From the NCBI GenBank assembly GCA_018650285.1, contig JABIGF010000028.1:68359-132358 (forward strand): 64,000 nucleotides of DNA. The letters are read 5' to 3'. This stretch comes from Methanobacteriota archaeon. Lineage in GTDB: Archaea > Thermoplasmatota > Poseidoniia > Poseidoniales > Thalassarchaeaceae. Made by a program: the position numbers and the translations under genes. Below are positions 807-17,999 of this stretch, one piece after another (within the stretch, counting starts at the first letter, position 1; each line of letters starts with the position of its first letter). The notes under the pieces are model-generated. The model did not search any database. It saw nothing but the letters and a program-made list of their open reading frames with translations, and was not told the origin of the DNA.

Positions 807-955
807 TTACTATTATATTCAAAACCCCTCCTTTTGGGGCATGATTCAGCAATACTTAGATGTCTAACCGAATGATGCTATCGGTTCACACAATAGGCAA
901 AGGTCTTGAAGCCGTCGTCGCCGGCCGACCGATGTTAGTAGGAACAGGTGGTTTA

Positions 956-1747
956 ATGTTGGAACTAGAGGGGAAAACTGCACTAGTCTTTGGTGTCGCA
1001 AGTGAAGAAAGTATTGCGTGGGCTATTTGCGAGCAATTAGCAGCGGCTGGATGCAAACTAATTCTTGGGTTTCAAAAGAGATTCATGAGTAGAGTATTCC
1101 AACTCAAAGATAAGTTGGACGCAATAGAAGCATTCTATCCAATTGATGTTGCGACAAATGAATTGACTGCTGAATTTTTCACCGAATGGCAGGCTGCAAA
1201 CCCTGGTGCGAAAGCTGACATCATCATTCATGCAATCGGATTTGCTCCCAAAGAATGTTTTGACCGTCCAACACTTTTCGTAGACAATGAACCAATGAAT
1301 ACAGCGATGACAATCAGTGCCCATTCGCTTCAAAGGGTGATGCGTCATGCATTACCACACCTGGCATCTAATTCATCAACCATCACTTTGACATACGCCG
1401 CATCTACAAGATGGGTTCCAAATTATGGTATCATGAGTATTGCTAAAGCGGCCCTTGAAGCGTGGACAAGGGAACTTGCCAACAATGTTGGACCAGATGG
1501 TCACCGAATTAATGCGATTTCATCAGGGCCTATCAAAACACTAGCAGCAGGAGGAATTCCTGGTTTTGATGATATTTTATACCATGTTGAGAGAAATGCA
1601 CCACTACGAAGAAATGTAACTCAGAAAGATGTTGCCGGTTGTGCAACTTGGTTAGCATCTCCGATGTCTTCTGGTGTAACGGGACAAATAATTCATGTTG
1701 ATGCTGGTTATTCTAGCATCATGGTCCCAGATAGCATTTCTGATTGA
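956..1747 (+). CDS. fabI: Enoyl-[acyl-carrier-protein] reductase, FabI type (SDR)
   Basis: The N-terminus MLELEGKTALVFGVASEESIAWAI matches the FabI glycine-rich NAD(P)H motif. PNYGIMSIAKAALEA carries the FabI Y-x6-K catalytic pair, and INAISSGPIKTLAA matches the FabI lid. The ORF is open from an ATG at 860, but the ATG at 956 has AGGTGG 5 nt upstream and aligns with FabI N-termini. Confidence 0.85.
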   Translation: MLELEGKTALVFGVASEESIAWAICEQLAAAGCKLILGFQKRFMSRVFQLKDKLDAIEAFYPIDVATNELTAEFFTEWQAANPGAKADIIIHAIGFAPKECFDRPTLFVDNEPMNTAMTISAHSLQRVMRHALPHLASNSSTITLTYAASTRWVPNYGIMSIAKAALEAWTRELANNVGPDGHRINAISSGPIKTLAAGGIPGFDDILYHVERNAPLRRNVTQKDVAGCATWLASPMSSGVTGQIIHVDAGYSSIMVPDSISD

Positions 1748-1756: not shown

Positions 1757-4700
1757 ATGTCAGGTCAAAAGCGGAAACCGACATCGCACTCATTCCCTCC
1801 TATTGCGATTGTTGGCCAATCTGCTCTTCTCCCAGGCGCTCCCGATATTGACACGTTTTGGCGTAATGTATTGAACGCGCATGTATCAATTAAGGAAGTC
1901 TCTCCGACAAGGTGGGACCCTAGGGATTTTTGGATTGAAGGTGAACCTGGTAGTGCTCCTGAAGGGAAAACCTATTCTAAAATCGGTGGTTTTATTGAGG
2001 ATTTCGAGTTTGATTGGCGGAGATGGAAACAACCACCGGGTACACTAACTCAAATTGATGACACACAACTTTGGGCTGTTAAAGTTGCAGCAGCAGCATT
2101 AGAAGATGCAGGGTATCTAGGTGAGAAGAATCGTCTTGAACTCGATAGTGAGATGTGTGGTGTCATCTTTGCAAACGCTTTGGGCGGCGAAAATCGGTTG
2201 TTGTCTGGTTTCCGTGTTCATGCTGATGAGATAACTCGTAAAGCAATGGAGGCTGGAATGCCTTCTGAGGGTAGTGAGAAATTCAAAGAAGCACTTGTTG
2301 AGGGTACGCCTCGTGTTGACGAGGATACAATGGCTGGTGAGTTGGCCAATGTTGTTGCCGGTAGAGTAGCAAATCTTCTTGATTTACAAGGCCCTAATTT
2401 CAGTGCTGATGCTGCTTGTGCATCCACTTTTGCTGCTTTAGTGTCGGCTTGTCAAATGCTACATTCTGGTCAAACTGATGTAATGATTTGTGGTGCAAGT
2501 GATCGCACCATGGATCCCGCAACTTATGCGAAGTTTAGTGCGATTGGTGCTTTATCTCCAATCCATTCTCGTCCTTTTGATGCTAGAGCAAATGGATTTG
2601 TAATGGGTGAAGGTGCTGGTTGTGTTGTTCTCAAGCGCTTGGAAGACGCAATTGCAGATGGTGACACAATCTACAGCGTTATTCGTGGTATCGGTGCATC
2701 AAGCGATGGTCGAGGAAAAGGAATTACCGCTCCATCAACCCGCGGGCAAAAACAAGCGTTGAATCGAGCATACGAGCAGGCAGGATATTCAGCATCTACA
2801 GTTGAGTTAATTGAGGCACACGGAACAAGTACCAAAGTTGGTGATGCAACAGAACTCTCAACGTTAGCAGAAGTATTCTCTAATTTGGATGGTGGAGATG
2901 CCGTTGCAGTTGGTTCGGTAAAAAGTCAGATTGGCCATCTCAAAGCAGCGGCTGGGATGGCTGGCTTGCTCAAGGCAAGTTTGGCGTTGCATCACAGAAC
3001 AATCCCGCCGTCTGCAGGATTTGAACAACCAAATACTGCTGTGAATTGGAATGAAATCCCATTTTTTGTTCCAACAGTGGCCACTGAATGGCCTCTTTCA
3101 ACATCAAATACACCTCGCCGTGCAGGAATATCTTCGTTTGGTTTTGGTGGGACAAATTTCCATTGCGCCCTTGAGCAGTACGACCCAGAGCACCACTTGT
3201 CCTTGCTAGAGGATTGGGATAAACCGATTCAAAATCAACCTCTCTTGGCGGATAGTGTGCTTGATAATAGTGCAAATCCATCAATGACTCATGAAGAGTT
3301 GAAAGCGATAGAAGGAGGGGTATTATTGCTTAATGCGAGTGACTTTGAATCACTCGCAGTTGAAATTGAAAAGACAAAAGCAATATTGTTTTCCTCTGAT
3401 TTGAATTTTGATAATACTGCAGAAGGTCGTCGTCTATCGGCAGTATTGCCTGAAATATCTGCTGAATTCTTAGCAAAGGGTGCCCGCTGTGCAGTTGTTG
3501 CAACTAGTTGGGCTCAATTAGAGAAGAGAATGCAACTATTATCGGACAATTTGGATGACCGTGACAAGTGGGATTTCTTGGCCAAGCAGATGGTTTTCAT
3601 TACCGATGAACCACCTCTGCCGTCGTCTGCAAAATTAGTTCAGATGTTTCCTGGGCAGGGTAGTCAATATGTTGGTATGACTCTAGATTTGTCAAAACGA
3701 TTCAATGTAATTGGTGAAACGTGGGATGAGGCTGACAAAACAATGATTGAAATTCTTGATGGAGAGAAACTGTCAGAGTTTGTATTGCGTGAAAATTTAT
3801 CACCCGATGAAGTGAAGATTGCTGAAGAGAAATTGAAGCAAACAGAATTCACTCAGCCAGCAATGTTGACAGCCGATTTAGCAATTTACCGCCTTCTGCA
3901 AGAACATGACATCAATCCAGATATGGTCGCAGGTCATAGTTTGGGTGAATATGCAGCACTAATGGTCTCTGGAATCATAAAGTTCCACGACGCTCTGCGT
4001 GCTGCTGCTGCTCGCGGAACAGAGATGGGTAATGTTGATGTTCCAGATCAAGGATTAATGGCAAGTGTAACTGCTCCTTTTGGAAAAGTGGAAGAAGTCA
4101 TCAATTCAGTTGATGGATATGTGATTGCTGCTAACAAGAATTCACCGTTAATGACAGTCATTGCTGGAGATACTCCGTCTATGCAGTCAGCAATATCAAA
4201 ATTTGATGAATTAAACATCCCATGCGTCACTCTACAAACTAGTCACGCATTCCATTCAAGCATTATTGCTCCAGCAAACGAACCGTTACGCCGTTTCCTT
4301 GAGGGCTTGGAACTATCACTTCCTACAATTCCTATCACTGCTAATTATGATGGGCAATTTTATCCCAATAATTTGGCAGAAGGAGAGACAATTCATGACG
4401 CAATTCTAAGGCAATTAGCACCACAAATGTCGTCAGCAGTTGAATGGACTGAACAAGTTCAAGAAATGTATAGTAAAGGTGGTAGACTATTCATGGAAGT
4501 AGGTCCAAAGAGGGCATTAGCTCTTTTTGCTGAACAGATTCTTCATGACCGTGAAAAAGTAGTGACTAACACAAATCACCCTAAGGTTGGAGGGGTTGCA
4601 AGTTTCCTATCTTCGATAGCAGTTTGTGCATTGGCTGGTCGTGTGCCATCTATGCACGCGCTAAACTCGGACCGCCTATCTAGTGGCTTTAGGGCAGGGC

Positions 4701-7700
4701 CGTTGGAAGTTTGGCAGACAGGTTCGAAAGCCTCAGTTACATCTGCAGCAAGTTCTGCAGAGATGGAAGATTTGCGGGTTCGAGCCCGCCCGCTTCCTAG
4801 TAGTGGTGTCACTAGTCATTCAGCGCCACAAACTAACACGCCATTTGCCGACTCAGTAGTAGAGGAGTTGGTAGACAAAGAGGGTTATTTGGCACATCGT
4901 ATTTCTGAGCTTTCTGGATATCCTACTCGCCATGTTAGGGGGGAACTTGATTTGAGCACATTTGGAATCGCCGGTGCATCTTTGACCAGTTTACTGACGA
5001 AAATTGCAGCAGAAGCAAATGTTTCGGGACCAGCAGATGCTAGTCAACATACCACATTAACGGCTCTTAATGAATGGGTATTATCTCCGCCTACCGGTTT
5101 TACAATTTCTCGTAAAGTCAAGGGCGGTGGTAGCGCTAGTCAGAGTGTAGTTTCTTTGGACTCAATGGCTGAACGTAAAGCGAATCCATATGTCGTAACA
5201 GGAGTGAGCCTCGGATTACCCGGTTTGAGTGAGGTTTTCGCGCCCGATGCACTTGAGCGAATTGTTGCAGGTGAGAATTTTATCAGTGAACTTCCTGATG
5301 AGGTCAAGCAGCGATTATTGGACAAAAATATGGTAAGGATTGTCAAGCATCAAGATGGCCGCGCTGAATTTGTTGCTTGTGATTCGTTTGCAACAATTCC
5401 TCAACTTGCTGGCGTGGGTGGTTACTTTGACTTGGCAGAACAGTATGGTGTAGATGAAAAAATTGTGGCGGCGATGGATATTGCAACCACTCTGTCATTC
5501 GCCGCTGGCTTGGAAGCATTAACCGATGCAGCACTTCCATTGTTACCTGTTGAACAGGTGAGTAGTGTTGGAAAGAGGTTGATTAGAGGTTGGAATCTAC
5601 CCAATTCAATTCGAGAAAGAACCGGTGTAGTGTTTGCTTCGGTATTCCCTGGAATTGCTATGGCTATGCGGCACGCTTTGAATAACGGAGCGGATGAGAA
5701 TGGGACTTTTGATAGACGCTTCCTTCTTCAAGTTTTGACAATGGGGCATGCTCAATTCGCTCAATGGATTGGGGCGCGTGGGCCAAATGCTGCGATTAAC
5801 AATGCTTGCGCATCAACACCTGCAGCCTTCGCAATTGCTGAAGATTGGCTGGCAACCGGCCGCTGTGACCGAGTTATTGTGATTAGCGGTGATGATTCAA
5901 CTGGCGACGATTTGATGGAGTGGATCGGCGCAGGTTTTGCCGCTGCTGGCGCCCATTCAATGGGCAATGTAGTTGAAGAAGTCGCTTTACCATTTGATGC
6001 ACGCCGAAATGGAATGTTACTTGGAATGGGTGGTGCAGCTTTCGTCATAGAGAAATCATCTCATGCAAATGAGAGAGGTGTTGTACCATATGCTGAACTG
6101 TTGGGTGCACATATTGGCAACTCAGCATTCCATCCAACACGTTTGGATGTAGAACATGTCGTGACCACATTTGATAATTTTGTCACAAATATGGAAAATC
6201 GTTGGGGGATTGACCGACATCAAATTGCTCCAAAAACGACCTTCATGTCACACGAGCCGTTCACTCCACCGCGTGGTGGTTCTGCAGCAGCAGAAATCGA
6301 ATCACTACGCGGGGCATTCAAGGAATCTGCTGAGCAGGTCATTATTACCAATACGAAAGGTTTCACTGGACATCCAATGGGCGTAGGTATTGAAGATGCT
6401 ACTGGATTGTATGCTCTTGCATCTGGGAGATTACCACCTATTGCTAATTTCAAAGAACCAGATGAGTCGTTAGGCAATCTCAGATTATCTGAAGGTGGTG
6501 AATATGATGTTGAATATATGTTGAGACATGCTGCTGGATTTGGTAGCCAAATTGCCTTGACAATGTTCAAGCGAATTGCTCGTACACTAAACCGAGTTGA
6601 CCGTGAAGCGGTCATTCGTTGGGCTGCAATTGAGGCTGGAGATGATGTTGAATTGCGTTTGCTGAAACGCAAATTGGTTGCATATGTTTCTCCTGATGAC
6701 TCATTGATAGGTGGTATGGAAGGAAACGAATGGGTTGTTTCTGCCCAAGATGCAGCGCCAGAAAATCAAACCGTAGAAATCCATATAGAAAAGCCCGTAG
6801 AAGTTGTAGCACCGATGCCAACTCCTGAGCCTGATGAACCAGTATCAAAACCCGCTCCAACAATAGTTGGTGGCACTTCACCCGATATTGAGGCGAAGGT
6901 GATTGAAACAGTAGCGGAGCATACAGGTTATCCTGCTGATTTCATAGAACTCGACCAAGATTTAGAGGGTGAGTTAGGAATTGATACAGTCAAACAGGCA
7001 GAAATAATGGCCGATTTAAGAACTGCATACTCATTGCCAGTTGATGATACGTTCCAATTGCGAGAACATCCGACATTGAACCATATGATTGCTTACATCG
7101 TTCGTATGAATGGGGATTCAGAATCTTCCGAACATCAGCCTTTAGAGCCTGTTGAGGATGAACAAACATCAGGTGAAGAGGAAATTGAGTCAATAGATGA
7201 GAATCAATCTGACGACATATCGCCGCCCATTCAGTCAGCAGCCGTGGATAGTGATGTTGAAGCAGGAGTCCTTGAAATTGTGGTAAAACACACTGGTTAT
7301 CCCGAAGATTTTCTTGAATTAGATCAAGACTTGGAAGGTGAATTGGGTATTGATACAGTCAAACAGGCTGAGATTATGGCTGATTGCCGAGAGCGCTATT
7401 CACTTCCAGTAGATGAGGAATTCCAGTTACGAGAGTATCCAACCTTAGCCCACATGATTGGTTATATCATCTCAATGAGAGGTGATTCTGCTACCGTTGA
7501 AACAATTGATGAAATAGAAACGGAGGAAGTGGTGGAAATTCAATCTGATGAAGAACCAGTTGAGAAGCCCTCTACCGACGCCATTGAAAGTGGCGTCCAC
7601 CGTTGGGTTGTAGAAGTTGAAGAGGCAGAACTAGGTCAAGCCCATCCACTTGATATGGGTGGCTCATATGTTATCGTTACAGATGATTCATGGGGCTTGG

Positions 7701-10198
7701 GTAATGCAATATGCCAAAGATTAGAATCAGATGGAATTGAAGCAGTTAGGCTGATGCTAGATCCAAGTATTAAGTCAAAGGTGCGAATTGAAAAAGATGG
7801 TGAAGTTGACATTATTCGTCTTGACCCAGGGAACCCAGATCATATTCTACAGTTTGGCGAAGTAATTACCGACTTAGATGTTGCAGGTGTAATTCACACA
7901 GCACCTTGTACACTTGCTGGTATGGCTTGGGCGGAGGTCACTAGTCGGCAGCAGACACAGATGGTCTGTCACGGATTATTCGGTGTGTTGCAGCAAATTG
8001 ATGCAAAATTGGCACAAAGAAGCGATGGTATAGTCTGTTCAATTTCGGCATTAGATGGCCGACACGGAAATGGCGGCCACAGATTCAATGCACTTGGTGC
8101 AGGCGCTCATGGTATAGTCAAATCATACGGGAGAGAAAGACCAAACATTCGTTCTCGTGCATTAGATGTTGCTCCAGAATTACTTGTGAATGCTGATGAT
8201 TTAGCAGCCACAATTCTCAGTGAAATTGAACAGATGGGCCCACGTGAACTTGGAATTGATGCAGATGGTAGGCGTTGGAGCGTTTGCATTTATGATGAAC
8301 CGCATGAGAATGGAGTGGAGTCATTACAATCAGATGATGTGTTCCTTGTTTCAGGTGGCGGCTCTGGTGTTACTGCTGCTTGTGTCGTAGGTTTAGCAGA
8401 GGCAAACCAAAATGTGGGTTGTCACTTCAGTCTTCTTGGTAGGACTACATTAGACGCTTCACTCTCAAAGCACATCGATGTATCTGATGAAGAGTTGAAC
8501 CAGATGAAGATGGAATTGCGTGAACAGATGCAATCAGAATCAGGTAAGGTGACAATTGTTGATTGGGAAGGTGCATGGTCCAAGATAGTACGTTCATTAG
8601 ACATTCACCGCACTATTGCACTTATTACGGCGTCTGGGAACAGTGCATCATACCATGTTTGTGATGTTACTAATAGCAAACATATTCGTAAGGTTTTGAA
8701 GAAGTTGAAGAAGAAGCGCCCGCCAGTTACTGGAATCATTCATGGGGCAGGAATTGAAGACTCAAAATTGATTTCAGACAAAGATTGGGATACTTTTTCA
8801 AAGGTTATGGCGGTAAAGGTTGATGGTTGGCAAGCTCTCATTAATGCGGTCAAAGACCATAGTAAGGAATTGCGATATTGTTGCGCTTTTACTTCAATTG
8901 CTGGCAGATTTGGCAATGGCGGGCAGACTGATTATGCTGCAGCCAATTGCATTCTTGATGCTGAAATGTCAAGGCTTACTCATACCGATAATGAGCCGCA
9001 CGGTTTAGCAATCGCTTGGACCGGTTGGAGAGATGTCGGCATGGCTACCCGCGGTTCAATTGAGAAAGTATTCTCTGATGCAGGGATTGAGACCGTATCT
9101 GTTGACCAAGGTGTTGACATGTTTGTTGAAGAGGTGATGCGAGGCGGTAAGCGCCGAGTCGTAATTGCTGGCAGTCTTGGTATTCTCAATGATGATGGTT
9201 CAGATAGGGAGCCACCACAACGACTTGCTCCAGAGGTTGCTGCTTTGCTGTCAGATGCAGCACGCTTCCCATTTGTTGACAAGATAACTAACCACGAATC
9301 ATTTGACACACTCTCTTATGAGTGCACATTGGATACAACTCGTTTTCCATTCTTAGATGATCATGAGATTGAAAATGTCCCATATCATCCTGGGGTGATG
9401 GCATTGGAAATGTTTTCAGAAGCTGCTCAATTACTTTGGCCTCCATGTTCAGTAATCGGTTTTGCAGGAGTTAACTTTGGTTTGCCAATCAAATTACTCA
9501 AAGATGAGATGAAGGTTAGAGTGGTTGCTGAATTCTCACATCAAAACGACAACAATGTATGGGTGAAGTGTCGGCTTGAATCGGATTTGATTAACAAAAA
9601 GGGGGAGATATTTGGCGAACCAAGGATTCATCACAAGGCTTTGGTCAGGCTTTTGAAAAAGAAAGCGGACCGAGGTCTTCTCAAATTACCTTCTATTGGC
9701 ATGCCTTCAAAAGGTGGCGTATCATACGGTTCTGAGTTTGTATACAAACGCTTTTTCCACGGTCCTAAATTCCAATCTCATGGCGGTATTCAAGGTGGTT
9801 GCCACATCAATGGCATGGATGGGGCAGATGGTATTGCTTTGTCGCGCCATCAATTGCCAGATGTCAAACAGTTTGCAGTTGGTGAAGTAATTCTAGAAGC
9901 GCAACCAATGTTGATTGAGGCTTGTTTCCAAAATGCGGGCATGGTGGCAATGGAGATTGATAAAATTCAATCATTGCCAATTGGAATCGAGATGCTTGAG
10001 TTGATTAGAACTCCTGAGGTTGGCGATTCATTGAGAATGAGGGCGGTTCGTCGTGGTGCAGAAGATGATGGCGTGACAATTCATGATTGCATGATTGTCA
10101 ATCAAGATAGCAAACCAGTGGTGGCGCTGAAGGGGCTGCGATTGAAGGGAATGGCTCCGATAGATTCGGATGATTATTTCTCATTAAATCGCAATTGA
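1757..10198 (+). CDS. Type I iterative fatty-acid/polyketide megasynthase, PfaA-like (KS-AT-ACP'-KS-ACP-ACP-KR-DH), 2813 aa
   Basis: Motifs were read directly from the translation. KS1 is at about 1796-3181: DAACAS with Cys221 at 2417-2419, EAHGTSTKVGD, GSVKSQIGHLKAAAG, FGFGGTNFH. The AT domain is at about 3638-4550: FPGQGSQ, GHSLGEY with Ser728 at 3938-3940, and HAFHS, the malonyl-type specificity motif. An ACP-like helix bundle is at about 4847-5085 (FGIAGASLTSLL). KS2 is at about 5183-6580: NNACAST with Cys1351 at 5807-5809, SHEPFTPP, TKGFTGHPMG. Two tandem carrier domains are at about 6881-7110 and 7249-7480 (ELGIDTVKQAEIMAD). KR is at about 7590-9190 (VSGGGSGVT, FGNGGQTDYAAAN). A double-hotdog PKS-type dehydratase (PS-DH) is at about 9262-10195 (LDDHEIENVPYHPGV, HGPKFQ). 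Confidence 0.9.
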   Translation: MSGQKRKPTSHSFPPIAIVGQSALLPGAPDIDTFWRNVLNAHVSIKEVSPTRWDPRDFWIEGEPGSAPEGKTYSKIGGFIEDFEFDWRRWKQPPGTLTQIDDTQLWAVKVAAAALEDAGYLGEKNRLELDSEMCGVIFANALGGENRLLSGFRVHADEITRKAMEAGMPSEGSEKFKEALVEGTPRVDEDTMAGELANVVAGRVANLLDLQGPNFSADAACASTFAALVSACQMLHSGQTDVMICGASDRTMDPATYAKFSAIGALSPIHSRPFDARANGFVMGEGAGCVVLKRLEDAIADGDTIYSVIRGIGASSDGRGKGITAPSTRGQKQALNRAYEQAGYSASTVELIEAHGTSTKVGDATELSTLAEVFSNLDGGDAVAVGSVKSQIGHLKAAAGMAGLLKASLALHHRTIPPSAGFEQPNTAVNWNEIPFFVPTVATEWPLSTSNTPRRAGISSFGFGGTNFHCALEQYDPEHHLSLLEDWDKPIQNQPLLADSVLDNSANPSMTHEELKAIEGGVLLLNASDFESLAVEIEKTKAILFSSDLNFDNTAEGRRLSAVLPEISAEFLAKGARCAVVATSWAQLEKRMQLLSDNLDDRDKWDFLAKQMVFITDEPPLPSSAKLVQMFPGQGSQYVGMTLDLSKRFNVIGETWDEADKTMIEILDGEKLSEFVLRENLSPDEVKIAEEKLKQTEFTQPAMLTADLAIYRLLQEHDINPDMVAGHSLGEYAALMVSGIIKFHDALRAAAARGTEMGNVDVPDQGLMASVTAPFGKVEEVINSVDGYVIAANKNSPLMTVIAGDTPSMQSAISKFDELNIPCVTLQTSHAFHSSIIAPANEPLRRFLEGLELSLPTIPITANYDGQFYPNNLAEGETIHDAILRQLAPQMSSAVEWTEQVQEMYSKGGRLFMEVGPKRALALFAEQILHDREKVVTNTNHPKVGGVASFLSSIAVCALAGRVPSMHALNSDRLSSGFRAGPLEVWQTGSKASVTSAASSAEMEDLRVRARPLPSSGVTSHSAPQTNTPFADSVVEELVDKEGYLAHRISELSGYPTRHVRGELDLSTFGIAGASLTSLLTKIAAEANVSGPADASQHTTLTALNEWVLSPPTGFTISRKVKGGGSASQSVVSLDSMAERKANPYVVTGVSLGLPGLSEVFAPDALERIVAGENFISELPDEVKQRLLDKNMVRIVKHQDGRAEFVACDSFATIPQLAGVGGYFDLAEQYGVDEKIVAAMDIATTLSFAAGLEALTDAALPLLPVEQVSSVGKRLIRGWNLPNSIRERTGVVFASVFPGIAMAMRHALNNGADENGTFDRRFLLQVLTMGHAQFAQWIGARGPNAAINNACASTPAAFAIAEDWLATGRCDRVIVISGDDSTGDDLMEWIGAGFAAAGAHSMGNVVEEVALPFDARRNGMLLGMGGAAFVIEKSSHANERGVVPYAELLGAHIGNSAFHPTRLDVEHVVTTFDNFVTNMENRWGIDRHQIAPKTTFMSHEPFTPPRGGSAAAEIESLRGAFKESAEQVIITNTKGFTGHPMGVGIEDATGLYALASGRLPPIANFKEPDESLGNLRLSEGGEYDVEYMLRHAAGFGSQIALTMFKRIARTLNRVDREAVIRWAAIEAGDDVELRLLKRKLVAYVSPDDSLIGGMEGNEWVVSAQDAAPENQTVEIHIEKPVEVVAPMPTPEPDEPVSKPAPTIVGGTSPDIEAKVIETVAEHTGYPADFIELDQDLEGELGIDTVKQAEIMADLRTAYSLPVDDTFQLREHPTLNHMIAYIVRMNGDSESSEHQPLEPVEDEQTSGEEEIESIDENQSDDISPPIQSAAVDSDVEAGVLEIVVKHTGYPEDFLELDQDLEGELGIDTVKQAEIMADCRERYSLPVDEEFQLREYPTLAHMIGYIISMRGDSATVETIDEIETEEVVEIQSDEEPVEKPSTDAIESGVHRWVVEVEEAELGQAHPLDMGGSYVIVTDDSWGLGNAICQRLESDGIEAVRLMLDPSIKSKVRIEKDGEVDIIRLDPGNPDHILQFGEVITDLDVAGVIHTAPCTLAGMAWAEVTSRQQTQMVCHGLFGVLQQIDAKLAQRSDGIVCSISALDGRHGNGGHRFNALGAGAHGIVKSYGRERPNIRSRALDVAPELLVNADDLAATILSEIEQMGPRELGIDADGRRWSVCIYDEPHENGVESLQSDDVFLVSGGGSGVTAACVVGLAEANQNVGCHFSLLGRTTLDASLSKHIDVSDEELNQMKMELREQMQSESGKVTIVDWEGAWSKIVRSLDIHRTIALITASGNSASYHVCDVTNSKHIRKVLKKLKKKRPPVTGIIHGAGIEDSKLISDKDWDTFSKVMAVKVDGWQALINAVKDHSKELRYCCAFTSIAGRFGNGGQTDYAAANCILDAEMSRLTHTDNEPHGLAIAWTGWRDVGMATRGSIEKVFSDAGIETVSVDQGVDMFVEEVMRGGKRRVVIAGSLGILNDDGSDREPPQRLAPEVAALLSDAARFPFVDKITNHESFDTLSYECTLDTTRFPFLDDHEIENVPYHPGVMALEMFSEAAQLLWPPCSVIGFAGVNFGLPIKLLKDEMKVRVVAEFSHQNDNNVWVKCRLESDLINKKGEIFGEPRIHHKALVRLLKKKADRGLLKLPSIGMPSKGGVSYGSEFVYKRFFHGPKFQSHGGIQGGCHINGMDGADGIALSRHQLPDVKQFAVGEVILEAQPMLIEACFQNAGMVAMEIDKIQSLPIGIEMLELIRTPEVGDSLRMRAVRRGAEDDGVTIHDCMIVNQDSKPVVALKGLRLKGMAPIDSDDYFSLNRN
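6881..7480 (+). repeat. Tandem duplication of the carrier-protein (ACP) module, period about 369 nt / 123 aa
   Basis: VAEHTGYPADFIELDQDLEGELGIDTVKQAEIMADLRTAYSLPVDDTFQLREHPTLNHMIAYI repeats as VVKHTGYPEDFLELDQDLEGELGIDTVKQAEIMADCRERYSLPVDEEFQLREYPTLAHMIGYI. The two copies are separated by acidic linkers. Confidence 0.85.
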
Positions 10199-10227: not shown

Positions 10228-10926
10228 ATGTGGGAACCAGTCGGAAAACCTACTTTTCTAGACCTTCCAAAAGGTGCTCACCAAGAGTCAATAGCCGCAT
10301 GGATTGAAGTGCGTCCAACTTCTCCTATGGATCCTGTTCCCGATGTATCTGCACAGAGGTTTGTTGATTCAATTGAAGCATCTAAATTTGCCATGGCGAA
10401 AAGGGCTGAGGAGCATGCCGCCGCTCGTTGGTTAGTTGAATACCTATTATTGGAGAGTGGTCGCAATCCTAAACTGTTCAAAATTCAACGTGATGATTAC
10501 CGTCGCCCTCGCCTCATAGGTCAAAATGCCCCATCTATGACAATCACTCATAGCGGTGGGATTGCTGCAGTATTACTAGGTCCCAAGGATATTGATATTG
10601 GATTAGATTTGGAACCATTGATGCCTCGTCCTAGGAATATTCTCTGCATGATGTCTTCTGGCAAGGAGAGAGCTGAACTTGAATCTCTATATGATGAAGA
10701 TGAGAAGAACGCTTCTTCTCAAACCACAGATGTGTGGGTTGCTAAGGAGGCAATACAGAAGGCTGCAGGGCTTGGGATGGGTCTTCCTCCTCAATCGTTT
10801 GAGGTGTATGGGCGTAATGTGGTCAATGTTGGTATTGATGGCGTCAATAATATTTTCAATCTTCATTGCTGGAAAGCAAATCTCAATGGTCAATTAACTT
10901 CATTGGCCATTGCAGAAAAGGTCTAA
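10228..10926 (+). CDS. 4'-phosphopantetheinyl transferase, Sfp/PfaE type
   Basis: ITHSGGIAAVLL...DIGLDLE and WVAKEAIQKAAG correspond to the PPTase G-x-D-x-E and W-x-x-KEA-x-x-K motifs. A GAGG site lies 7 nt upstream of the ATG, and the gene starts 29 nt after the megasynthase stop. Confidence 0.85.
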   Translation: MWEPVGKPTFLDLPKGAHQESIAAWIEVRPTSPMDPVPDVSAQRFVDSIEASKFAMAKRAEEHAAARWLVEYLLLESGRNPKLFKIQRDDYRRPRLIGQNAPSMTITHSGGIAAVLLGPKDIDIGLDLEPLMPRPRNILCMMSSGKERAELESLYDEDEKNASSQTTDVWVAKEAIQKAAGLGMGLPPQSFEVYGRNVVNVGIDGVNNIFNLHCWKANLNGQLTSLAIAEKV

Positions 10927-13251
10927 TCACTTGCTAATTTCAGCATCTAGGATACTTTCATCTTGTGACAATTGTTTTGTCAACCAATAGGTGAAAGCAA
11001 TTGCAATTATCCATAGAGGGATATTTGCTCTGTAGAATGTCTCGTATGCGATGATATCAGTTTTCCCTGAACTAATGAAATATCCTAGGGCAAAGAAACC
11101 TGCTAGAATTCCAATTGATTGCCCTAAGAAGGCTACGAGACTCGCCATGCCAATTCCACGATTCCTTTCATCTTCATTGGTGAATTTAGCCATTAGCGCA
11201 TCGTTTGAGACTAGCAACATTGGATAGATTGGTACTACAAAGATTAGAACCGCAATCATTGGTGGTAACCCAATGCTGAATATGGACCAAAGTGTCCCAT
11301 ATGCTGCTGCAGACCAAAATAGAACGGTCTGCGCTCCTCTTTCATCACATACCTTGCCAATTACTGCGTATAGGACTAGAACGGCAACTACTGCCCATGC
11401 CTCTAACAGTCCCGTGAAGTCCACATCAAATCCTACGACTTCTAGATAGCGCAGAGCAGTCAATACTACTGCACCGCGTGGAATTGCTACTAGTATTACT
11501 CCAAGTAAACAGAGCATAGCCCATTTACTTTCAAATCTGAATATCCCACGGAACATTGTTAACTTCTCTTTGAAACTTAATTTCACAGGCTCTGGCTTAT
11601 TACCTCCCTTCAGCATCCAAATAGGCCAGGAAAAATCATCACCTTCGAATTTCATTATCATTAAGGCACCGACAACTAATGCTGGGATTGAAAATCCAAC
11701 AAGCCCAAGCATTGCATAGGTTGACCCTGAAGGCAATAGCATCACATACAATTTGCTGCATACCATTGAACCAATTGCTGCTGCGAATGAAGCGAATGCG
11801 TAGAGTACTCCAAGGAACTCACCTTTCTGTTCAGGGAACCATTCTGTACCAACAGCGACCCCCATTCTGACTGAAGCAAATAATGCAATTTGTATTGTTG
11901 AAGCAATGATGTACGCTTCAAGTGGGAGGAATGGGAATGAGGCCATTATGACACTGGCACCAATCATGGCAAACAACATCAATTGTTTTCTGTGGCCCCA
12001 TTTGTCTGCAATAGCGCCCCAAATAGGCCCAAAGGCACCAAGGGCAAAAGCGAGTAAACACAGATGGAGAATAACCACATCTTCAGAAGCGCCCAATTCA
12101 CGAGAATGGAAGGAATACAGAATCAGTGCGTTGTTAATTCCACCTATTAGGAATGCTGCTGCAATAAATAATCGCTTTAGATCCCCCTCTTCTCTAGAAC
12201 CATGCCCCAACTCTTTTGCACTTTCTTTTAGGGAACGATAGCGCCCCATGAGCCAGAATCCTACAGCCACAAGTACTGGTATTGTGAGATAAAACAGGAC
12301 ATCCTTGAATCCGCTAGAGAGAATGCTAGGCCCTCTGTCATCCATTTCGAATACGGCTTGATTGGTATTTCCTTGATTACCCGAAGAGTCATTCCACATT
12401 ATGTGGGCTTCTAGAATGGTCCCATCTTTCCATACTTCAATTTCCCAACGATAGACGCCACCATCCGAATCAGTGCCGTCTTCTGTTGGTTCAAGGAGGT
12501 GCTCATCATTACCATCAGTTGCGTGAATAATCAGTGTCCCTTCCTCAAACAATTTGTCACTTAGAGCCCACCTAACTTGAGCGGCCCAAATCACATCAGA
12601 GCGCGAATAGTTCTCATGCTCACCTCTGAACATTGTCCCCTCACTCTCGAGGTAAGGGTCGTCAACTTGGTACATACCAGCAGAGATTGTTAGATTGGTG
12701 GGTGTCTCTGATGAGCCCCAGTGGATGGTGCAAGAGTTAGTATCAAAGGGATTTATTTCTTCACTGTTAACTGTCCAGCGAATTGAAAGAGTTTGGTCAA
12801 TTGAAATATTATCTGGTAAATTCCCTCCCGAGAAATCAATACGCTGCTTCTCTTCAGAAAGTGAAATCCCACCACTATTGATTTGGTCTAATTCAGTTCC
12901 ATCAATGAACAGAAAGAGGTCAATATTTACTTGTCCGCTTCCACTTGCCCAAAGTGAGAAATTCCAAGACTCGCTACCAATCGGGGCATCCCTAACAAAA
13001 TTCGTAGTAGTGAGGGTGGGGCCATCGGAGGCAAAAGATACGAACTGCAAAGGGAAATCGTGAGTAGACATCTCTGCCTGTTCTTTCAATTCAGGAGAGA
13101 GTGTATCTTGACTTTGAGCAAAAAGAGAGGTAGTCCTAATGGGTGGAGAATACTCAACTTCAGGGGGAAGAACATCCTCTTCTCCTGTTGTTGTGGGTAT
13201 GACAAGAGTCCCAATCACCAAAACTAGTGTGACTAGGATAATTCGTTTCAT
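10927..13251 (-). CDS. MFS transporter fused to an N-terminal extracellular domain of about 330 aa
   Basis: It has a signal/anchor sequence (MKRIILVTLVLVIGTLVIP) followed by a soluble Asn/Ser/Trp-rich domain. About 12 TM helices follow, with the MFS loop motif GAIADKWGHRKQ. Its stop codon directly abuts the PPTase stop, a convergent junction with 0-nt spacing. Confidence 0.75.
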   Translation of the reverse strand: MKRIILVTLVLVIGTLVIPTTTGEEDVLPPEVEYSPPIRTTSLFAQSQDTLSPELKEQAEMSTHDFPLQFVSFASDGPTLTTTNFVRDAPIGSESWNFSLWASGSGQVNIDLFLFIDGTELDQINSGGISLSEEKQRIDFSGGNLPDNISIDQTLSIRWTVNSEEINPFDTNSCTIHWGSSETPTNLTISAGMYQVDDPYLESEGTMFRGEHENYSRSDVIWAAQVRWALSDKLFEEGTLIIHATDGNDEHLLEPTEDGTDSDGGVYRWEIEVWKDGTILEAHIMWNDSSGNQGNTNQAVFEMDDRGPSILSSGFKDVLFYLTIPVLVAVGFWLMGRYRSLKESAKELGHGSREEGDLKRLFIAAAFLIGGINNALILYSFHSRELGASEDVVILHLCLLAFALGAFGPIWGAIADKWGHRKQLMLFAMIGASVIMASFPFLPLEAYIIASTIQIALFASVRMGVAVGTEWFPEQKGEFLGVLYAFASFAAAIGSMVCSKLYVMLLPSGSTYAMLGLVGFSIPALVVGALMIMKFEGDDFSWPIWMLKGGNKPEPVKLSFKEKLTMFRGIFRFESKWAMLCLLGVILVAIPRGAVVLTALRYLEVVGFDVDFTGLLEAWAVVAVLVLYAVIGKVCDERGAQTVLFWSAAAYGTLWSIFSIGLPPMIAVLIFVVPIYPMLLVSNDALMAKFTNEDERNRGIGMASLVAFLGQSIGILAGFFALGYFISSGKTDIIAYETFYRANIPLWIIAIAFTYWLTKQLSQDESILDAEISK

Positions 13252-15596: not shown

Positions 15597-17999
15597 TCAA
15601 CCTTGATACTTTTGCCAGTGGTTTGTTTGTCTATCTCGGTACCACCAATTGTCAGAACTTGGTGGATGCTCAAGATATTCATACCCGTCTGGTTGCATAA
15701 CCCCCACTTGTGATGGATGTGGGGCTGAAACTTCTGCAGGCGCTCTAGAAGTGGGTACTAATTCTGGCGCCCCGTGTCTTCTTGATGGCATTCCAGCGCC
15801 GGCAAATTGCATATTGCTTTCTTGCCTTTCAAAGAGGTATTCTTCTTCGCTAGGTCCATCGTTATTATTTCCGCCCCTAGACATTGTAATTAACCCGATT
15901 AAAATACCTAGAGCTGCAATTATCCCAATAATCCCCCCGATTAATGGAATTGTCCCCACTCCTCCTGATAATCCTAGGGCAGATTTTTCGCAGCCGGCTT
16001 CATCAACATCTACTCCCGATGCAGTATCAAGACAATCATCGTCATCATTTGCGATTCCATCAGCATCGTTGTCAAGTAATTCATCACAGCCATCAGCAAT
16101 TCCGTATCCATCTACATCAACGCCGTCATCATGTCCAGCACACTTGTCATCAATATCTGCTACTCCATCACCATCAGAGTCAATGAGAGTATCACATCCG
16201 TCAGCAATTCCATCTCCATCTAAATCAACGCTGTCATCATGTCCTTCACAGGTATCATTAGAGTTGGAAACTCCGTCATTATCTGAATCAATGATATCAT
16301 CACAGCCGTCAGGTTTGCCATCTGCATCAACATCAACATTGTCATCATACCCTGGGCATACTTCAAATGAATCAGCAACACCATCTGCATCTGAATCAAT
16401 AATTGTGTCACATCCATCAACGATTCCATCTTGGTCAACATCAATTGCATCATCGTAACCCATGCATTCATCTACAGCATCAGCAACACCATCAAAGTCG
16501 CTATCGACTATGTTGTCGCACCCATCTGGAACTCCATCTTGGTCAACATCAATACTATCATCATGGCCAGGACAGAGGTCAGCTGTATTGTTCACTCCAT
16601 CTCCATCATTATCAATCAGTGAATCGCATCCATCGGGAATACCATCCGCATCAGCATCAATGCTGTCATTGTATCCCGGGCATTGATCCATTGCATCCGT
16701 CACTCCATCATTGTCAGTATCTTTCTGGCTTGCGGAGCATCCTTGCCATGGTGGCTCAGTATCAGCGGTTTCGTTTGCAGGCGTTGCTGGACAATGGTCA
16801 TCTGGATTGAGGATAGTATCGCCATCTTCATCTCTTTGTTCCCAAGCACAACCATTCGCATTAATGTCGGTCATTTCTGCAGTAGTATTTGCACAGGTGT
16901 CATTAGGATTCAATACGCCATCAGAATCTGCATCTCTTTGTTCCCAAGAGCATCCATCGGAATCTAATCCGGTATGTGCTACAGGTGTGTTAGGGCATAG
17001 GTCATCTGAATCACGAACTCCATCATTATCTGCATCAACCCATACGCCATTTGAGAATTTCCAGGACATGATTGTCATATTATTTACAGAGATAGGATAT
17101 CCCCATTCACCAAGTACTACGCTTTCGTCCATATCGCCTCCCTCATTCCAATATTCAACCTCAATACCGGTAACTGAAGTTGGCCCACTTCCACTACTAT
17201 CCGCTAAATTATAGCCAGGGCTCTGAATAGTTACTTCTCTTGTAGCATTGCTGGTTTCATTTTGTTCATGGTGTTCACTATCAGCAAATGAGTTAGAAGA
17301 ATCAGGTGCCCAAATATTGCCTCCTGTATTAAATTCCCCATTTTCCTCACTCGTCCAATTATTCCATTCTTTGTAGTTTAGAGTCCAAATGTCTCCAACA
17401 GTAAAGTTGTCTTGGTAGCCAGTTTGGAGGATTTCAACAGTTTCATTCTCCCAACTGCTCATGCGATACATATCTTCATTCCCGCTTTGTTCTTTCATCC
17501 ACATCCGCGTATGAGAAATACTCACTTCTTTATGCCAGCCAGTGTAGGTGGTTGGAATTAACTCCAAATTATTCATTGACAAATTCATAATCATTTCCGA
17601 ATTATCGGTGTCATTGTATGCAGTGACATTCATTTGGAATGTCAGCCTAGTTTGATGACATTGCCCAGAATAGGCAGGGAATGAACAGTAGATATCACCG
17701 GGTAAATCAGCCCGGAAATCTGAGACCCAATTCACTTCTGCTCGGTCGATCTCACTCTCATTTTCCCAATCTGAACGCATTTCTTCAGCCATGGGAGAGC
17801 CATTGAAGGAGCCAAAATCTCCAGCAGTAAACTGCCAAACAACATATGGATTTTGAATGACAATAGGGGTTTTTCCTACCGGGTTTACTGTATTTTCATT
17901 CTCAAGTTCAACATCAATTGATTCTAGTAAAGGGCTTAGAGCAGCCAGTGGCAGCATTAGAAACAGTATTACATGACTTATTTTCATTATTATTGGCAC
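15597..17999 (-). CDS. Surface protein with thrombospondin type-3-like calcium-binding repeats, a C-terminal TM anchor and a cytoplasmic tail
   Basis: It has a signal peptide, an N-terminal Trp/Asn-rich domain of about 320 aa, and then Asp-rich D-x-D-x-D-G-x-x-D-x-x-D repeats with conserved Cys from aa 321 to 670. A TM helix follows (GGIIGIIAALGILIGLITM) and then a 94-aa tail. Confidence 0.8.
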   Translation of the reverse strand: MPIIMKISHVILFLMLPLAALSPLLESIDVELENENTVNPVGKTPIVIQNPYVVWQFTAGDFGSFNGSPMAEEMRSDWENESEIDRAEVNWVSDFRADLPGDIYCSFPAYSGQCHQTRLTFQMNVTAYNDTDNSEMIMNLSMNNLELIPTTYTGWHKEVSISHTRMWMKEQSGNEDMYRMSSWENETVEILQTGYQDNFTVGDIWTLNYKEWNNWTSEENGEFNTGGNIWAPDSSNSFADSEHHEQNETSNATREVTIQSPGYNLADSSGSGPTSVTGIEVEYWNEGGDMDESVVLGEWGYPISVNNMTIMSWKFSNGVWVDADNDGVRDSDDLCPNTPVAHTGLDSDGCSWEQRDADSDGVLNPNDTCANTTAEMTDINANGCAWEQRDEDGDTILNPDDHCPATPANETADTEPPWQGCSASQKDTDNDGVTDAMDQCPGYNDSIDADADGIPDGCDSLIDNDGDGVNNTADLCPGHDDSIDVDQDGVPDGCDNIVDSDFDGVADAVDECMGYDDAIDVDQDGIVDGCDTIIDSDADGVADSFEVCPGYDDNVDVDADGKPDGCDDIIDSDNDGVSNSNDTCEGHDDSVDLDGDGIADGCDTLIDSDGDGVADIDDKCAGHDDGVDVDGYGIADGCDELLDNDADGIANDDDDCLDTASGVDVDEAGCEKSALGLSGGVGTIPLIGGIIGIIAALGILIGLITMSRGGNNNDGPSEEEYLFERQESNMQFAGAGMPSRRHGAPELVPTSRAPAEVSAPHPSQVGVMQPDGYEYLEHPPSSDNWWYRDRQTNHWQKYQG
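15990..16724 (-). repeat. Seven tandem units of about 36 aa (108 nt) of the type D-x-(I/L)-(I/V)-D-S-D-x-D-G-V-x-(6)-C-x-G-(H/Y)-D-D-x-(I/V)-D-V-D-x-D-G-x-x-D-G-C
   Basis: The units cover aa 426-458, 459-494, 495-530, 531-566, 567-602, 603-638 and 639-670. Five are exactly 36 aa. The reverse-strand Ser/His/Ile-rich ORFs in the track are mirror artefacts of these GAT/GAC-rich repeats. Confidence 0.85.

What the first reader, a model, noticed from the sequence alone, without database searches (positions are those of the whole stretch)
6881..7480. Both tandem carrier domains carry Thr (GIDT) at the canonical phosphopantetheine Ser position
The two ACP repeats align residue-for-residue with PfaA-type ACPs (consensus ...DLGIDSIKRVEI...). 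Both read ELGIDTVKQAEIMAD. The codon is ACA in each case: Thr1744 at 6986-6988 and Thr1867 at 7355-7357. The phosphopantetheine (PPant) acceptor in known carrier proteins is an invariant Ser. Finding Thr in both diverged copies argues for selection rather than a sequencing error. Three readings are possible. The adjacent PPTase may modify Thr. These domains may be non-pantetheinylated scaffolds, with the upstream ACP-like domain (G-A-S1075-L, nt 4979-4981) acting as the real carrier. Or the chemistry may differ in some other way.
Basis: seen in the sequence. Interest (0 to 1): 0.72.

Follow-up and report, generated by a model that had tools for sequence, protein, structure and literature searches.

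The report
Carrier domains with threonine attachment site
A giant fatty-acid/polyketide-type enzyme of abundant marine archaea, and a whole family of relatives in bacteria and archaea, has threonine where every studied carrier protein has the serine that holds its phosphopantetheine arm, which suggests an undescribed protein modification made by the transferase encoded next door.

Summary
Thr1744 (ACA, 6986-6988) and Thr1867 (ACA, 7355-7357) sit at the first residue of helix II in two well-folded acyl carrier domains. They align with the phosphopantetheine (PPant) serine of solved carrier proteins.

This is a family trait, not an error:
- 280 of 284 carrier domains in 120 Marine Group II (MGII) archaeal orthologues have Thr.
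- 456 of 456 in 120 Chloroflexota-type homologues have Thr.
- 410 of 628 domains have Thr in the 150 best-scoring cluster representatives from 1.84 billion proteins.
- Apart from two degenerate copies, only Thr or Ser occurs at this site, and all four Thr codons are used.

The family matches the uncharacterised "Type R" secondary-lipid synthase. An Sfp-type PPTase with intact catalytic motifs lies adjacent here and is fused to the synthase in Asgard-like and Thermoplasmatota homologues. Its phylogeny tracks the carrier type.

The upstream ACP-like domain is a degenerate carrier, and its Ser1075 is not conserved.

The best reading (confidence 0.68) is that the dedicated PPTase attaches PPant to threonine. 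I found no report of this, and E. coli ACP S36T is reported not to be modified. No biochemistry was done here, so attachment to Thr is inferred. I classify it as a new variant of a known kind, with high interest.

The parts
860..1747 (+). FabI-like enoyl-ACP reductase, the probable trans-acting ER of the system
   Evidence: Pfam adh_short_C2 at 5e-66. NCBIfam FabI models score ~229 bits, below their cut-offs. It is syntenic upstream of the megasynthase in L001 and L002.
1757..10198 (+). 2813-aa megasynthase with domain order KS1-AT-psiACP-KS2-ACP-ACP-KR-DH ('Type R' pfaA homologue)
   Evidence: It is 100% identical to P0001, a MAG Euryarchaeota protein. The architecture matches Type R of Shulse & Allen 2011 (PMC3098273).
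4838..5110 (+). Degenerate ACP-like domain (psi-ACP) between AT and KS2; it contains Ser1075 (4979-4981)
   Evidence: Its HMM cross-hits true ACPs. The AF2 model has pLDDT 79.5 with ACP-like helices, and its Foldseek hits are ACPs/PCPs at TM ~0.6. No hydroxyl is conserved at or near the start of helix II.
5180..6574 (+). Second ketosynthase-like domain (KS2), retaining Cys1351, His1499 and His1539
   Evidence: Second ketoacyl-synt stretch plus a Pfam ACP_syn_III hit at aa 1347-1382.
6878..7111 (+). Carrier domain 1 (aa 1708-1785)
   Evidence: Family ACP HMM 140.7 bits. Pfam PP-binding. AF2 model pLDDT 88.6. Foldseek hits are ACPs.
6986..6988 (+). Thr1744 codon (ACA) at the canonical PPant acceptor position, the first residue of helix II
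7247..7480 (+). Carrier domain 2 (aa 1831-1908)
   Evidence: Family ACP HMM 140.7 bits. It is 71% identical to domain 1.
7355..7357 (+). Thr1867 codon (ACA) at the canonical PPant acceptor position
8609..9034 (+). Ketoreductase core (best Pfam KR stretch, aa 2285-2426)
   Evidence: Pfam KR at 9.4e-28.
9293..10198 (+). PKS-type dehydratase region (aa 2513 to the C-terminus)
   Evidence: Pfam PKS_DH_N at aa 2513-2594. The region is conserved in the KR-DH alignment A1.
10228..10926 (+). Dedicated Sfp-type 4'-phosphopantetheinyl transferase (232 aa)
   Evidence: Pfam ACPS 36.4 bits (cut-off 25), plus a sub-threshold 4PPT_N match (22.2 bits, cut-off 27). The ITHSG, IGLDLEP and WVAKEAIQKA motifs align to Sfp H90, D107/E109 and E151/K155. 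It lies immediately downstream of the synthase in every MGII locus.

Best explanation
The two tandem domains are working acyl carrier domains whose prosthetic-group acceptor is threonine instead of serine.

Proposed mechanism: the Sfp-type PPTase encoded 30 nt downstream (10228-10926) transfers 4'-phosphopantetheine from CoA onto the side-chain oxygen of Thr1744 and Thr1867, at the N-terminus of helix II. The resulting holo-carriers then shuttle malonyl and acyl thioesters between KS1/KS2, AT, KR and DH in cis and the FabI-like reductase (860-1747) in trans. The product would be a fatty-acyl-type chain.

Thr is the family-wide state of the 'Type R' secondary-lipid synthases, with the motif LG[IV]DTVKQ[AV]E. 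These occur in MGII, Thermoplasmatota and Asgard-like archaea and in many bacterial phyla. Their PPTases form lineages of their own.

What is shown here:
- the fold of the carrier domains;
- the position of the Thr;
- its conservation;
- the restriction of the site to Ser or Thr;
- PPTase linkage and intact catalytic motifs;
- co-segregation of PPTase lineage with carrier type.

What is inferred: the actual transfer onto Thr, the product, and any selective advantage. Possible advantages are insulation from housekeeping AcpS-type enzymes or a more elimination-resistant phosphodiester.
For: 1. Thr occupies the PPant position by sequence alignment to solved ACPs and by structure. Helix II starts at the Thr, mean pLDDT is 88.6, and all Foldseek hits are carrier proteins.

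2. Thr is conserved as follows:
- 280/284 domains in 120 MGII orthologues;
- 456/456 in 120 Chloroflexota-type homologues, including Roseiflexus sp.;
- 410 Thr, 214 Ser, 1 Ala and 1 Asp among 628 domains of the best 150 cluster representatives.
So a hydroxyl is required, but either Ser or Thr will do.

3. All four Thr codons are used, and Ser is one nucleotide away (ACN vs TCN). The 20-aa core is identical between the two copies despite 10 synonymous differences.

4. Carrier copy number varies from 1 to 4 in MGII orthologues and 1 to 6 in the Chloroflexota-type homologues, with every copy keeping the motif. This is the pattern seen in productive tandem ACPs.

5. A PPTase with Sfp catalytic motifs is adjacent in the window and in all 13 MGII loci. 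It is fused to the C-terminus of the same polypeptide in L029, L032, L033, L036, L034 and L067. It is present in 26 of the 29 Thr-type loci.

6. PPTases of Thr-type clusters group apart from those of Ser-type PfaA-like clusters, and their tree mirrors the synthase tree.

7. Heimdallarchaeum L033 has Ser-, Thr- and Ser-type carriers in one protein with one fused PPTase. MGII Ser variants (L001, L002, L013) are nested within Thr clades with the same synteny. Ser and Thr are therefore functionally interchangeable at this site.

8. The acceptor and the +1 residue are coupled: T-V 407, S-I 205, S-V 7, T-I 3. This looks like a volume-compensating swap at the helix N-terminus.

9. The window holds no other carrier domain or PPTase. 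The upstream psi-ACP has no conserved hydroxyl.
Against: - No biochemical or proteomic evidence was obtained. Attachment to Thr is inferred.
- The one experimental precedent I found points the other way. E. coli ACP S36T is described as unable to receive 4'-PP and is non-functional (PMC3340395). That concerns AcpS, not an Sfp-type enzyme.
- I found no motif-level difference in the PPTase that would explain acceptance of Thr. The discriminating columns are confounded by phylogeny.
- Ser-type PfaA-like clusters also carry dedicated PPTases. PPTase linkage alone therefore does not prove that Thr is the target.
- Three Thr-type loci (L015, L023, L037) showed no PPTase in the DNA available.
- The trees are quick NJ trees without support values.
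Confidence: 0.68

Rival explanations
1. The Thr-type domains are never pantetheinylated. They act as structural or docking pseudo-carriers, and the real carrier is elsewhere: the upstream ACP-like domain (Ser1075) or a discrete ACP encoded elsewhere in the genome.
For: Classical carriers need Ser, and E. coli ACP S36T is not modified. An ACP-homologous domain does exist upstream, between AT and KS2.
Against: - Ser1075 is K, Q or E in most orthologues, and no nearby column keeps a hydroxyl.
- The window holds no other carrier.
- A scaffold would not need a strictly Ser-or-Thr residue at the helix II N-terminus across about 1,400 domains.
- A scaffold would not need a near-invariant recognition helix, 1-6 amplified copies, or a dedicated or fused PPTase.
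- From my own knowledge rather than a test here, archaea are generally reported to lack ACP and AcpS.
Confidence: 0.1
2. The Thr hydroxyl is used for different chemistry. It might carry another prosthetic group, be acylated directly as an oxoester, or be a regulatory phosphorylation site. In that case the PPTase would serve some other substrate.
For: The requirement for a hydroxyl fits any O-linked modification. Nothing here identifies the attached group.
Against: - The only modifying enzyme consistently linked to, or fused with, the synthase is a PPTase with intact Mg2+/CoA motifs.
- Ser and Thr variants interchange within otherwise orthologous proteins, and within one polypeptide (L033). The Ser forms are ordinary PPant motifs.
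- From general knowledge of FAS/PKS enzymology, KS, KR and DH chemistry in these synthases depends on the long thiol arm.
Confidence: 0.1
3. The Thr-type megasynthase in MGII is a decaying, non-functional relic acquired by horizontal transfer, so the Thr has no functional meaning.
For: The family is patchily distributed across phyla, which suggests horizontal transfer (PMC3098273).
Against: The 8.4-kb ORF is intact and conserved at 54-100% identity in at least 120 cluster representatives, with conserved synteny. Catalytic Cys and His residues are retained in both KS domains. There is synonymous turnover at a fixed Thr. In the 276 Thr-type proteins examined, only two degenerate carrier copies were found.
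Confidence: 0.02
4. Sequencing or assembly error: the true codon is TCA (Ser).
For: None.
Against: The same residue occurs in hundreds of independent assemblies with all four Thr codons.
Confidence: 0

Closest known systems
'Type R' secondary lipid synthase cluster (Shulse & Allen 2011, PLoS One 6:e20146; PMC3098273)
   Same: Both have one pfaA homologue with KS-MAT-(second KS/CLF)-ACPn-KR, followed by a PPTase gene. Some members are associated with an acetyl-CoA carboxylase gene. Listed hosts include Roseiflexus and Elusimicrobium. My Thr-type set includes Roseiflexus sp., an Elusimicrobiaceae MAG and ACC-containing actinobacterial clusters.
   Different: The paper lists only bacteria, and its main text contains neither 'threonine' nor 'serine' nor 'archaea'. 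No product or biochemistry is known. The MGII version has a FabI-like gene upstream, no ACC in the cluster, a psi-ACP, and a KS2 that keeps the catalytic Cys.
PfaA of bacterial and thraustochytrid PUFA synthases with PfaE PPTase (TIGR02813)
   Same: Both have KS-AT, tandem ACPs and KR-DH, an LGID-x-[IV]-K helix II motif, a dedicated Sfp-type PPTase and multiplied carriers.
   Different: PfaA-type carriers read LGIDSIKRVEI with Ser, whereas here the motif is LGIDTVKQAEI with Thr. This protein also has an extra psi-ACP and KS2 between AT and the ACPs. No PfaB, PfaC or PfaD is present. The score is 857.9 bits against the 1010.1 cut-off.
E. coli AcpP with AcpS (S36T mutant)
   Same: The four-helix carrier fold is the same, and the acceptor sits at the helix II N-terminus.
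   Different: In AcpP, replacing Ser36 by Thr is reported to abolish 4'-PP modification and function (PMC3340395). Here Thr is the conserved natural state.
Sfp (B. subtilis) and other group II PPTases
   Same: The window PPTase aligns to Sfp across the H90, D107/E109 and E151/K155 motifs.
   Different: It is very distant (E = 0.011, 18.5 bits to Sfp). No NCBIfam model matches it. All characterised Sfp-type enzymes have Ser acceptors, as far as I know.
Enediyne PKSE (SgcE/CalE8) and fungal/CMN type I FAS with integrated PPTase
   Same: These are iterative type I synthases with a C-terminal PPTase domain that loads their own carrier. The Thermoplasmatota, Asgard-like and some bacterial homologues have the same arrangement.
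   Different: This comparison rests on my own knowledge of their architecture and was not tested here. Those systems use Ser carriers and have different domain sets.

Membership tests
Acyl carrier protein / PP-binding domain (Pfam PF00550) | Sequence match to the family model above its threshold | tested here: met
   PF00550 at 55.5 bits (cut-off 20.8), two stretches.
Acyl carrier protein / PP-binding domain (Pfam PF00550) | Helical carrier-bundle fold with the acceptor at the N-terminus of helix II | tested here: met
   AF2 model pLDDT 88.6 with helix II starting at the Thr. Foldseek hits are ACPs at TM 0.7-0.8.
Acyl carrier protein / PP-binding domain (Pfam PF00550) | Invariant Ser as PPant acceptor (PROSITE PS00012 requires S; recalled from memory) | tested here: not met
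   Thr at both sites.
Acyl carrier protein / PP-binding domain (Pfam PF00550) | Covalent 4'-phosphopantetheine on the acceptor residue | not testable with these tools
   This needs intact-mass or PPant-ejection mass spectrometry.
PfaA, omega-3 PUFA synthase subunit (TIGR02813) | Score at or above the curated cut-off | tested here: not met
   857.9 bits against 1010.1.
PfaA, omega-3 PUFA synthase subunit (TIGR02813) | Companion pfaB/C/D genes (KS-CLF-DH2 subunit and PfaD-type ER) | tested here: not met
   The neighbours are TatD, a FabI-like gene, the PPTase and an MFS transporter. No such genes occur elsewhere in the 64-kb window.
'Type R' secondary lipid synthase (Shulse & Allen 2011) | A single pfaA homologue with KS-MAT-second KS/CLF-tandem ACP-KR architecture | tested here: met
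   compared with the description.
'Type R' secondary lipid synthase (Shulse & Allen 2011) | A downstream PPTase (pfaE homologue) | tested here: met
   ORF 10228..10926.
'Type R' secondary lipid synthase (Shulse & Allen 2011) | Homology to the named Type R members (Roseiflexus, Elusimicrobium, Koribacter, Solibacter) | tested here: inconclusive
   Roseiflexus sp. proteins and an Elusimicrobiaceae MAG fall in the same Thr-type clade. The exact strains in the paper, and Koribacter and Solibacter, were not retrieved.
Sfp-type (group II) PPTase | ACPS-superfamily domain with conserved His, Asp-x-Glu and W-x-x-K-E-x-x-x-K motifs | tested here: met
   Pfam ACPS 36.4 bits. Alignment to Sfp.
Sfp-type (group II) PPTase | Transfer of PPant from CoA to a carrier Ser | not testable with these tools
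   The only candidate acceptors in the cluster are Thr. This needs an in vitro assay.

The most novel reading that the evidence does not exclude
O-(4'-phosphopantetheinyl)-threonine is a real, widespread and so far undescribed protein modification. A distinct lineage of Sfp-type PPTases installs it on LG[IV]DTVKQ carriers. This Thr-carrier/PPTase pair is orthogonal to housekeeping Ser-ACP/AcpS systems. It drives an ACP-dependent type I fatty-acid (secondary-lipid) synthase in Marine Group II, Thermoplasmatota and Asgard-like archaea, lineages usually said to lack ACP-based fatty acid synthesis.
Probability: 0.55. Interest if true: 0.9.

Novelty: new variant of a known kind. Interest (0 to 1): 0.8.

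Why it matters
- **Enzymology.** The PPant acceptor is taught as an invariant serine, and pattern-based annotation such as PROSITE PS00012 requires it. A large natural family with Thr would add a new modification. It would also imply a PPTase specificity that could be used as an orthogonal tagging or activation pair.
- **Annotation.** In the 11 database names I looked up, these proteins carry generic labels such as 'SDR family NAD(P)-dependent oxidoreductase'. Their carriers may be scored as inactive.
- **Biology.** The host is Marine Group II (Poseidoniales), described as the most abundant planktonic archaea in surface waters (PMC6461757). Its membrane-lipid chemistry is unresolved, and a bacterial-like fatty-acid pathway has been proposed for it (PMC6962369). 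A complete ACP-dependent type I synthase with its own PPTase and ER makes the question 'do these archaea make fatty acids, and how?' directly testable.
- **Tractability.** Roseiflexus castenholzii, Elusimicrobium minutum, Koribacter and Solibacter are listed as carrying Type R clusters. Native verification should therefore be feasible.

Tried and rejected
- **Sequencing error or recent duplication.** Rejected.
- **Upstream Ser1075 as the real carrier.** Rejected, because the residue is not conserved. The domain is a genuine but degenerate ACP homologue.
- **MGII-specific oddity.** Rejected. The Thr motif is family-wide across Bacteria and Archaea.
- **PPTase residues explaining Thr acceptance.** I compared columns between PPTases of Thr-type and Ser-type clusters. 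Catalytic motifs are the same in both. The best discriminating columns, such as the residue equivalent to Sfp I154 (Q/L vs A/G), are confounded by phylogeny, and the MGII Ser variants do not follow them cleanly. This led nowhere.
- **Literature searches.** I searched for MGII or Poseidoniales with polyketide, ACP or PUFA synthase, for the motif DTVKQ, for six phrasings of threonine phosphopantetheinylation, and for archaeal megasynthases. None found anything relevant. One search call failed on syntax. The library covers open-access papers only, so absence there is not proof of absence.
- **NCBIfam.** No curated model covers the PPTase, and the megasynthase is below every model's cut-off.
- **Source names.** Names for ten Thr-type cluster representatives were generic or absent.
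Full report
**1. The observation**

The window carries an intact 8.4-kb ORF (1757..10198, +) encoding a 2813-aa megasynthase. Pfam finds ketosynthase, acyltransferase, a second ketosynthase-like region, two PP-binding domains, KR and a PKS-type dehydratase.

Codons 6986-6988 and 7355-7357 are both ACA. They encode Thr1744 and Thr1867, each within ELGIDTVKQAEIMAD.

phmmer against all PDB sequences aligns this Thr column with the phosphopantetheine Ser of both PigH ACPs (LGVDSI, LGIDSV), of the S. coelicolor FAS ACP and of others.

An AlphaFold2 model of repeat 1 is confident (mean pLDDT 88.6). Its helix II begins exactly at the Thr. Its Foldseek matches in the PDB are all carrier proteins at TM 0.7-0.8.

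The two repeats are 71% identical in protein and 65% in DNA. Their 20-residue core is identical in protein although it differs at 10 synonymous nucleotide positions.

**2. Host and orthologues**

The protein is 100% identical to a protein from a 'Euryarchaeota archaeon' MAG. Its 120 best homologues (54-100% identity) come from Marine Group II archaea: Poseidoniales, Thalassarchaeaceae and Thalassarchaeum. The rest of the window is archaeal, with PCNA, Nop56/58, fibrillarin and NMD3.

In those 120 proteins the carrier domain occurs 1-4 times, giving 284 domains. Of these, 280 read LGIDTVKQAE[IV]M with Thr. The four Ser cases belong to two proteins, P0060 and P0095. Both sit on archaeal contigs with the same gene order, TatD - FabI-like - megasynthase - PPTase - MFS.

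Across the fetched DNA loci, Thr is encoded by all four codons (ACG 34, ACC 30, ACT 10, ACA 9). Ser is always TCN, one substitution away. Thr is therefore held by purifying selection.

**3. Thr is a family trait, not an MGII peculiarity**

I scanned one genome per GTDB species with an alignment of the KR-DH region, chosen so that the query did not contain the motif. I then searched the retrieved loci with a carrier-domain HMM.

Thr-type carriers, LG[IV]DTVKQ[AV]E, appeared in these groups:
- Actinomycetota and Solirubrobacterales;
- Gemmatimonadaceae;
- Haliangium;
- Anaerolineales;
- Elusimicrobiaceae;
- an alphaproteobacterial MAG and a Desulfobacteraceae MAG;
- a Thermoplasmatota archaeon;
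- Heimdallarchaeota-type archaea.

More distant PfaA/HglE-like loci carry the classical LGIDSIKRVEI with Ser.

An exhaustive HMMER search of 1.84 billion cluster representatives with one carrier domain gave 4728 hits. In the best 150 proteins, the 628 carrier domains have 410 Thr, 214 Ser, 1 Ala and 1 Asp at this column. The last two lie in degenerate extra copies. 104 proteins are all-Thr, 40 are all-Ser and 2 are mixed Ser/Thr.

A further search seeded with the Anaerolineales homologue returned 120 Chloroflexota-type proteins, including Roseiflexus sp., Ca. Chloroploca and Ca. Oscillochloris. In these, 456 of 456 carrier domains have Thr.

The site thus tolerates Ser or Thr and essentially nothing else. 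This is what one expects if the side-chain hydroxyl is the functional group.

**4. The transferase**

ORF 10228..10926 starts 30 nt after the synthase stop. It is an Sfp-type PPTase:
- Pfam ACPS scores 36.4 bits against a cut-off of 25.
- Its nearest solved relative is Sfp, at E = 0.011.
- It keeps the motifs that align with Sfp's His90 (ITHSG), Asp107/Glu109 (IGLDLEP) and Glu151/Lys155 (WVAKEAIQKA).
- No NCBIfam model recognises it.

A PPTase lies immediately downstream of the synthase in all 13 MGII loci. It is found in 26 of the 29 Thr-type loci. It is fused to the C-terminus of the same polypeptide in the Thermoplasmatota and Heimdallarchaeum homologues, confirmed by Pfam, and in L032, L036, L034 and L067.

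In a neighbour-joining tree, PPTases linked to Thr-type carriers group apart from those linked to Ser-type PfaA-like clusters. The tree mirrors the synthase tree.

The window contains no other carrier domain or PPTase.

**5. Ser and Thr interchange**

In the KR-DH tree the Ser-bearing archaeal orthologues fall in two separate places inside the Thr-bearing MGII clade. L001 and L002 sit next to the Thalassarchaeaceae-like group, and L013 sits next to the Poseidoniaceae-like group. Bacterial and Asgard-like Thr-type sequences lie outside. The simplest reading is two Thr-to-Ser reversions. These are quick NJ trees without support values, so this is provisional.

Heimdallarchaeum L033 carries Ser-, Thr- and Ser-type carriers in one protein with one fused PPTase.

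The acceptor residue is tightly coupled to the next residue. Counts in the representative set are T-V 407, S-I 205, S-V 7 and T-I 3. In effect a methyl group moves from position +1 onto the acceptor. This fits tight packing at the helix II N-terminus, although shared ancestry inflates the numbers.

**6. The upstream ACP-like domain**

The segment around aa 1040-1114 is a real but degenerate carrier homologue:
- An HMM built from it cross-hits true ACPs.
- Its AF2 model has pLDDT 79.5 and an ACP-like helix pattern.
- Its Foldseek hits are ACPs and PCPs at TM ~0.6.

Ser1075, however, is K, Q or E in most orthologues. No column around the start of helix II keeps a hydroxyl.

**7. What the system is**

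The architecture matches the 'Type R' secondary lipid synthase cluster of Shulse & Allen (2011). That cluster has one pfaA homologue, KS-MAT-CLF-ACP(3-6)-KR, followed by a PPTase gene, sometimes with an acetyl-CoA carboxylase gene. It was reported in Koribacter, Solibacter, Elusimicrobium minutum and Roseiflexus (PMC3098273).

My bacterial Thr-type clusters agree with that description. L041 and L025 carry an acyl-CoA-dehydrogenase-like gene, the synthase, a single-chain eukaryote-like ACC and a PPTase. The main text of that paper contains none of the words threonine, serine or archaea. No product is known.

The protein is not PfaA by NCBI's model (857.9 bits against a 1010.1 cut-off), and no pfaB/C/D genes are present.

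In MGII the second KS keeps Cys1351, His1499 and His1539, so 'CLF' may be a misnomer here.

With KS, AT, carriers, KR and DH in cis and a FabI-like reductase upstream, the cluster has all the activities of a fatty-acid-type cycle. This is an inference. MGII have been proposed to have a bacterial-like fatty-acid pathway and PlsC homologues (PMC6962369).

**8. Mechanism and rivals**

The best-supported explanation (confidence about 0.68) is that the dedicated PPTase attaches 4'-phosphopantetheine to the Thr hydroxyl, and that the domains then work as ordinary thiol-arm carriers.

Shown here:
- the fold of the carrier domains;
- the position of the Thr;
- family-wide conservation;
- the restriction of the site to Ser or Thr;
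- tandem amplification of the carriers;
- PPTase linkage or fusion, with intact catalytic motifs;
- co-segregation of PPTase lineage with carrier type.

Inferred: the transfer itself, the product, and any advantage of Thr.

The main counter-evidence is the E. coli precedent. ACP S36T is reported to be unmodifiable and non-functional (PMC3340395). That concerns AcpS rather than an Sfp-type enzyme.

Rival explanations:
- unmodified scaffold domains (about 0.1);
- other O-linked chemistry (about 0.1);
- a decaying relic (about 0.02);
- sequencing error (0).

**9. Novelty**

I found no paper describing Thr as a PPant acceptor, the DTVKQ motif, or the MGII synthase. The 11 Thr-type family members whose database entries I looked up have generic names or none. 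No solved structure is closer than PigH.

The literature library is open-access only, so prior mention elsewhere cannot be excluded.

I rate this a new variant of a known kind: a carrier/PPTase system with a Thr acceptor. Interest is high because it contradicts a textbook invariant across a large, ecologically important family. It is also testable in days by co-expression and mass spectrometry.

Noticed in passing
window 4838-5110 (+): A degenerate carrier-like domain (psi-ACP) sits between AT and KS2. In most orthologues its motif reads LG[ILM][ST][DE], with the hydroxyl one position early. In some distant homologues (L067, L034) the same place holds a Thr-type ACP with the full motif.
   Followed up: yes
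window 5180-6574 (+): The second ketosynthase-like domain keeps Cys1351, His1499 and His1539. The 'CLF' label used for Type R clusters may therefore not apply, and the protein may have two active KS domains.
   Followed up: partly
L029 1202-12424; L033 4076-12262; also L032, L036, L034, L067: In Thermoplasmatota, Heimdallarchaeota-like and some bacterial homologues, the PPTase is fused to the C-terminus of the megasynthase, giving a self-loading synthase. L033 also shows a second, near-identical PPTase fragment downstream (ORF at 14335).
   Followed up: partly
L041 25-1950 and 11662-17031; L025 1574-3274 and 11305-16992: Actinobacterial Thr-type clusters carry an acyl-CoA-dehydrogenase-like gene and a single-chain, eukaryote-like acetyl-CoA carboxylase (BC-BCCP-central-CT, ~1800-1900 aa) beside the synthase. 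This suggests a self-contained fatty-acid factory.
   Followed up: partly
carrier domains generally: The acceptor and the next residue are strongly coupled. Thr is followed by Val (407 vs 3 Ile), and Ser by Ile (205 vs 7 Val).
   Followed up: partly
window 10927-13251 (-): An MFS transporter with an unmatched N-terminal extension of ~360 aa lies convergent to the PPTase. An MFS gene holds the same position in L001 and L002, so it may belong to the cluster, perhaps for lipid or precursor transport.
   Followed up: no
window 37492-38793 (-): A 433-aa protein combines an RRM_1 RNA-recognition motif with a treble-clef zinc finger. To my knowledge RRM domains are uncommon in archaea.
   Followed up: no
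window 29486-32791 (-) and 32962-34950 (-): An IcmF-like fusion (B12-binding + MeaB GTPase + methylmalonyl-CoA mutase, 1101 aa) lies next to an AMP-binding acyl-CoA synthetase-like gene. Both concern acyl-CoA metabolism and lie ~20 kb from the synthase.
   Followed up: no
window 15597-17999 (-) and 54246-59126 (+): Two large, probably secreted or surface proteins: an 800-aa protein with thrombospondin type 3 repeats, and a 1626-aa S8 subtilase with a CARDB domain.
   Followed up: no
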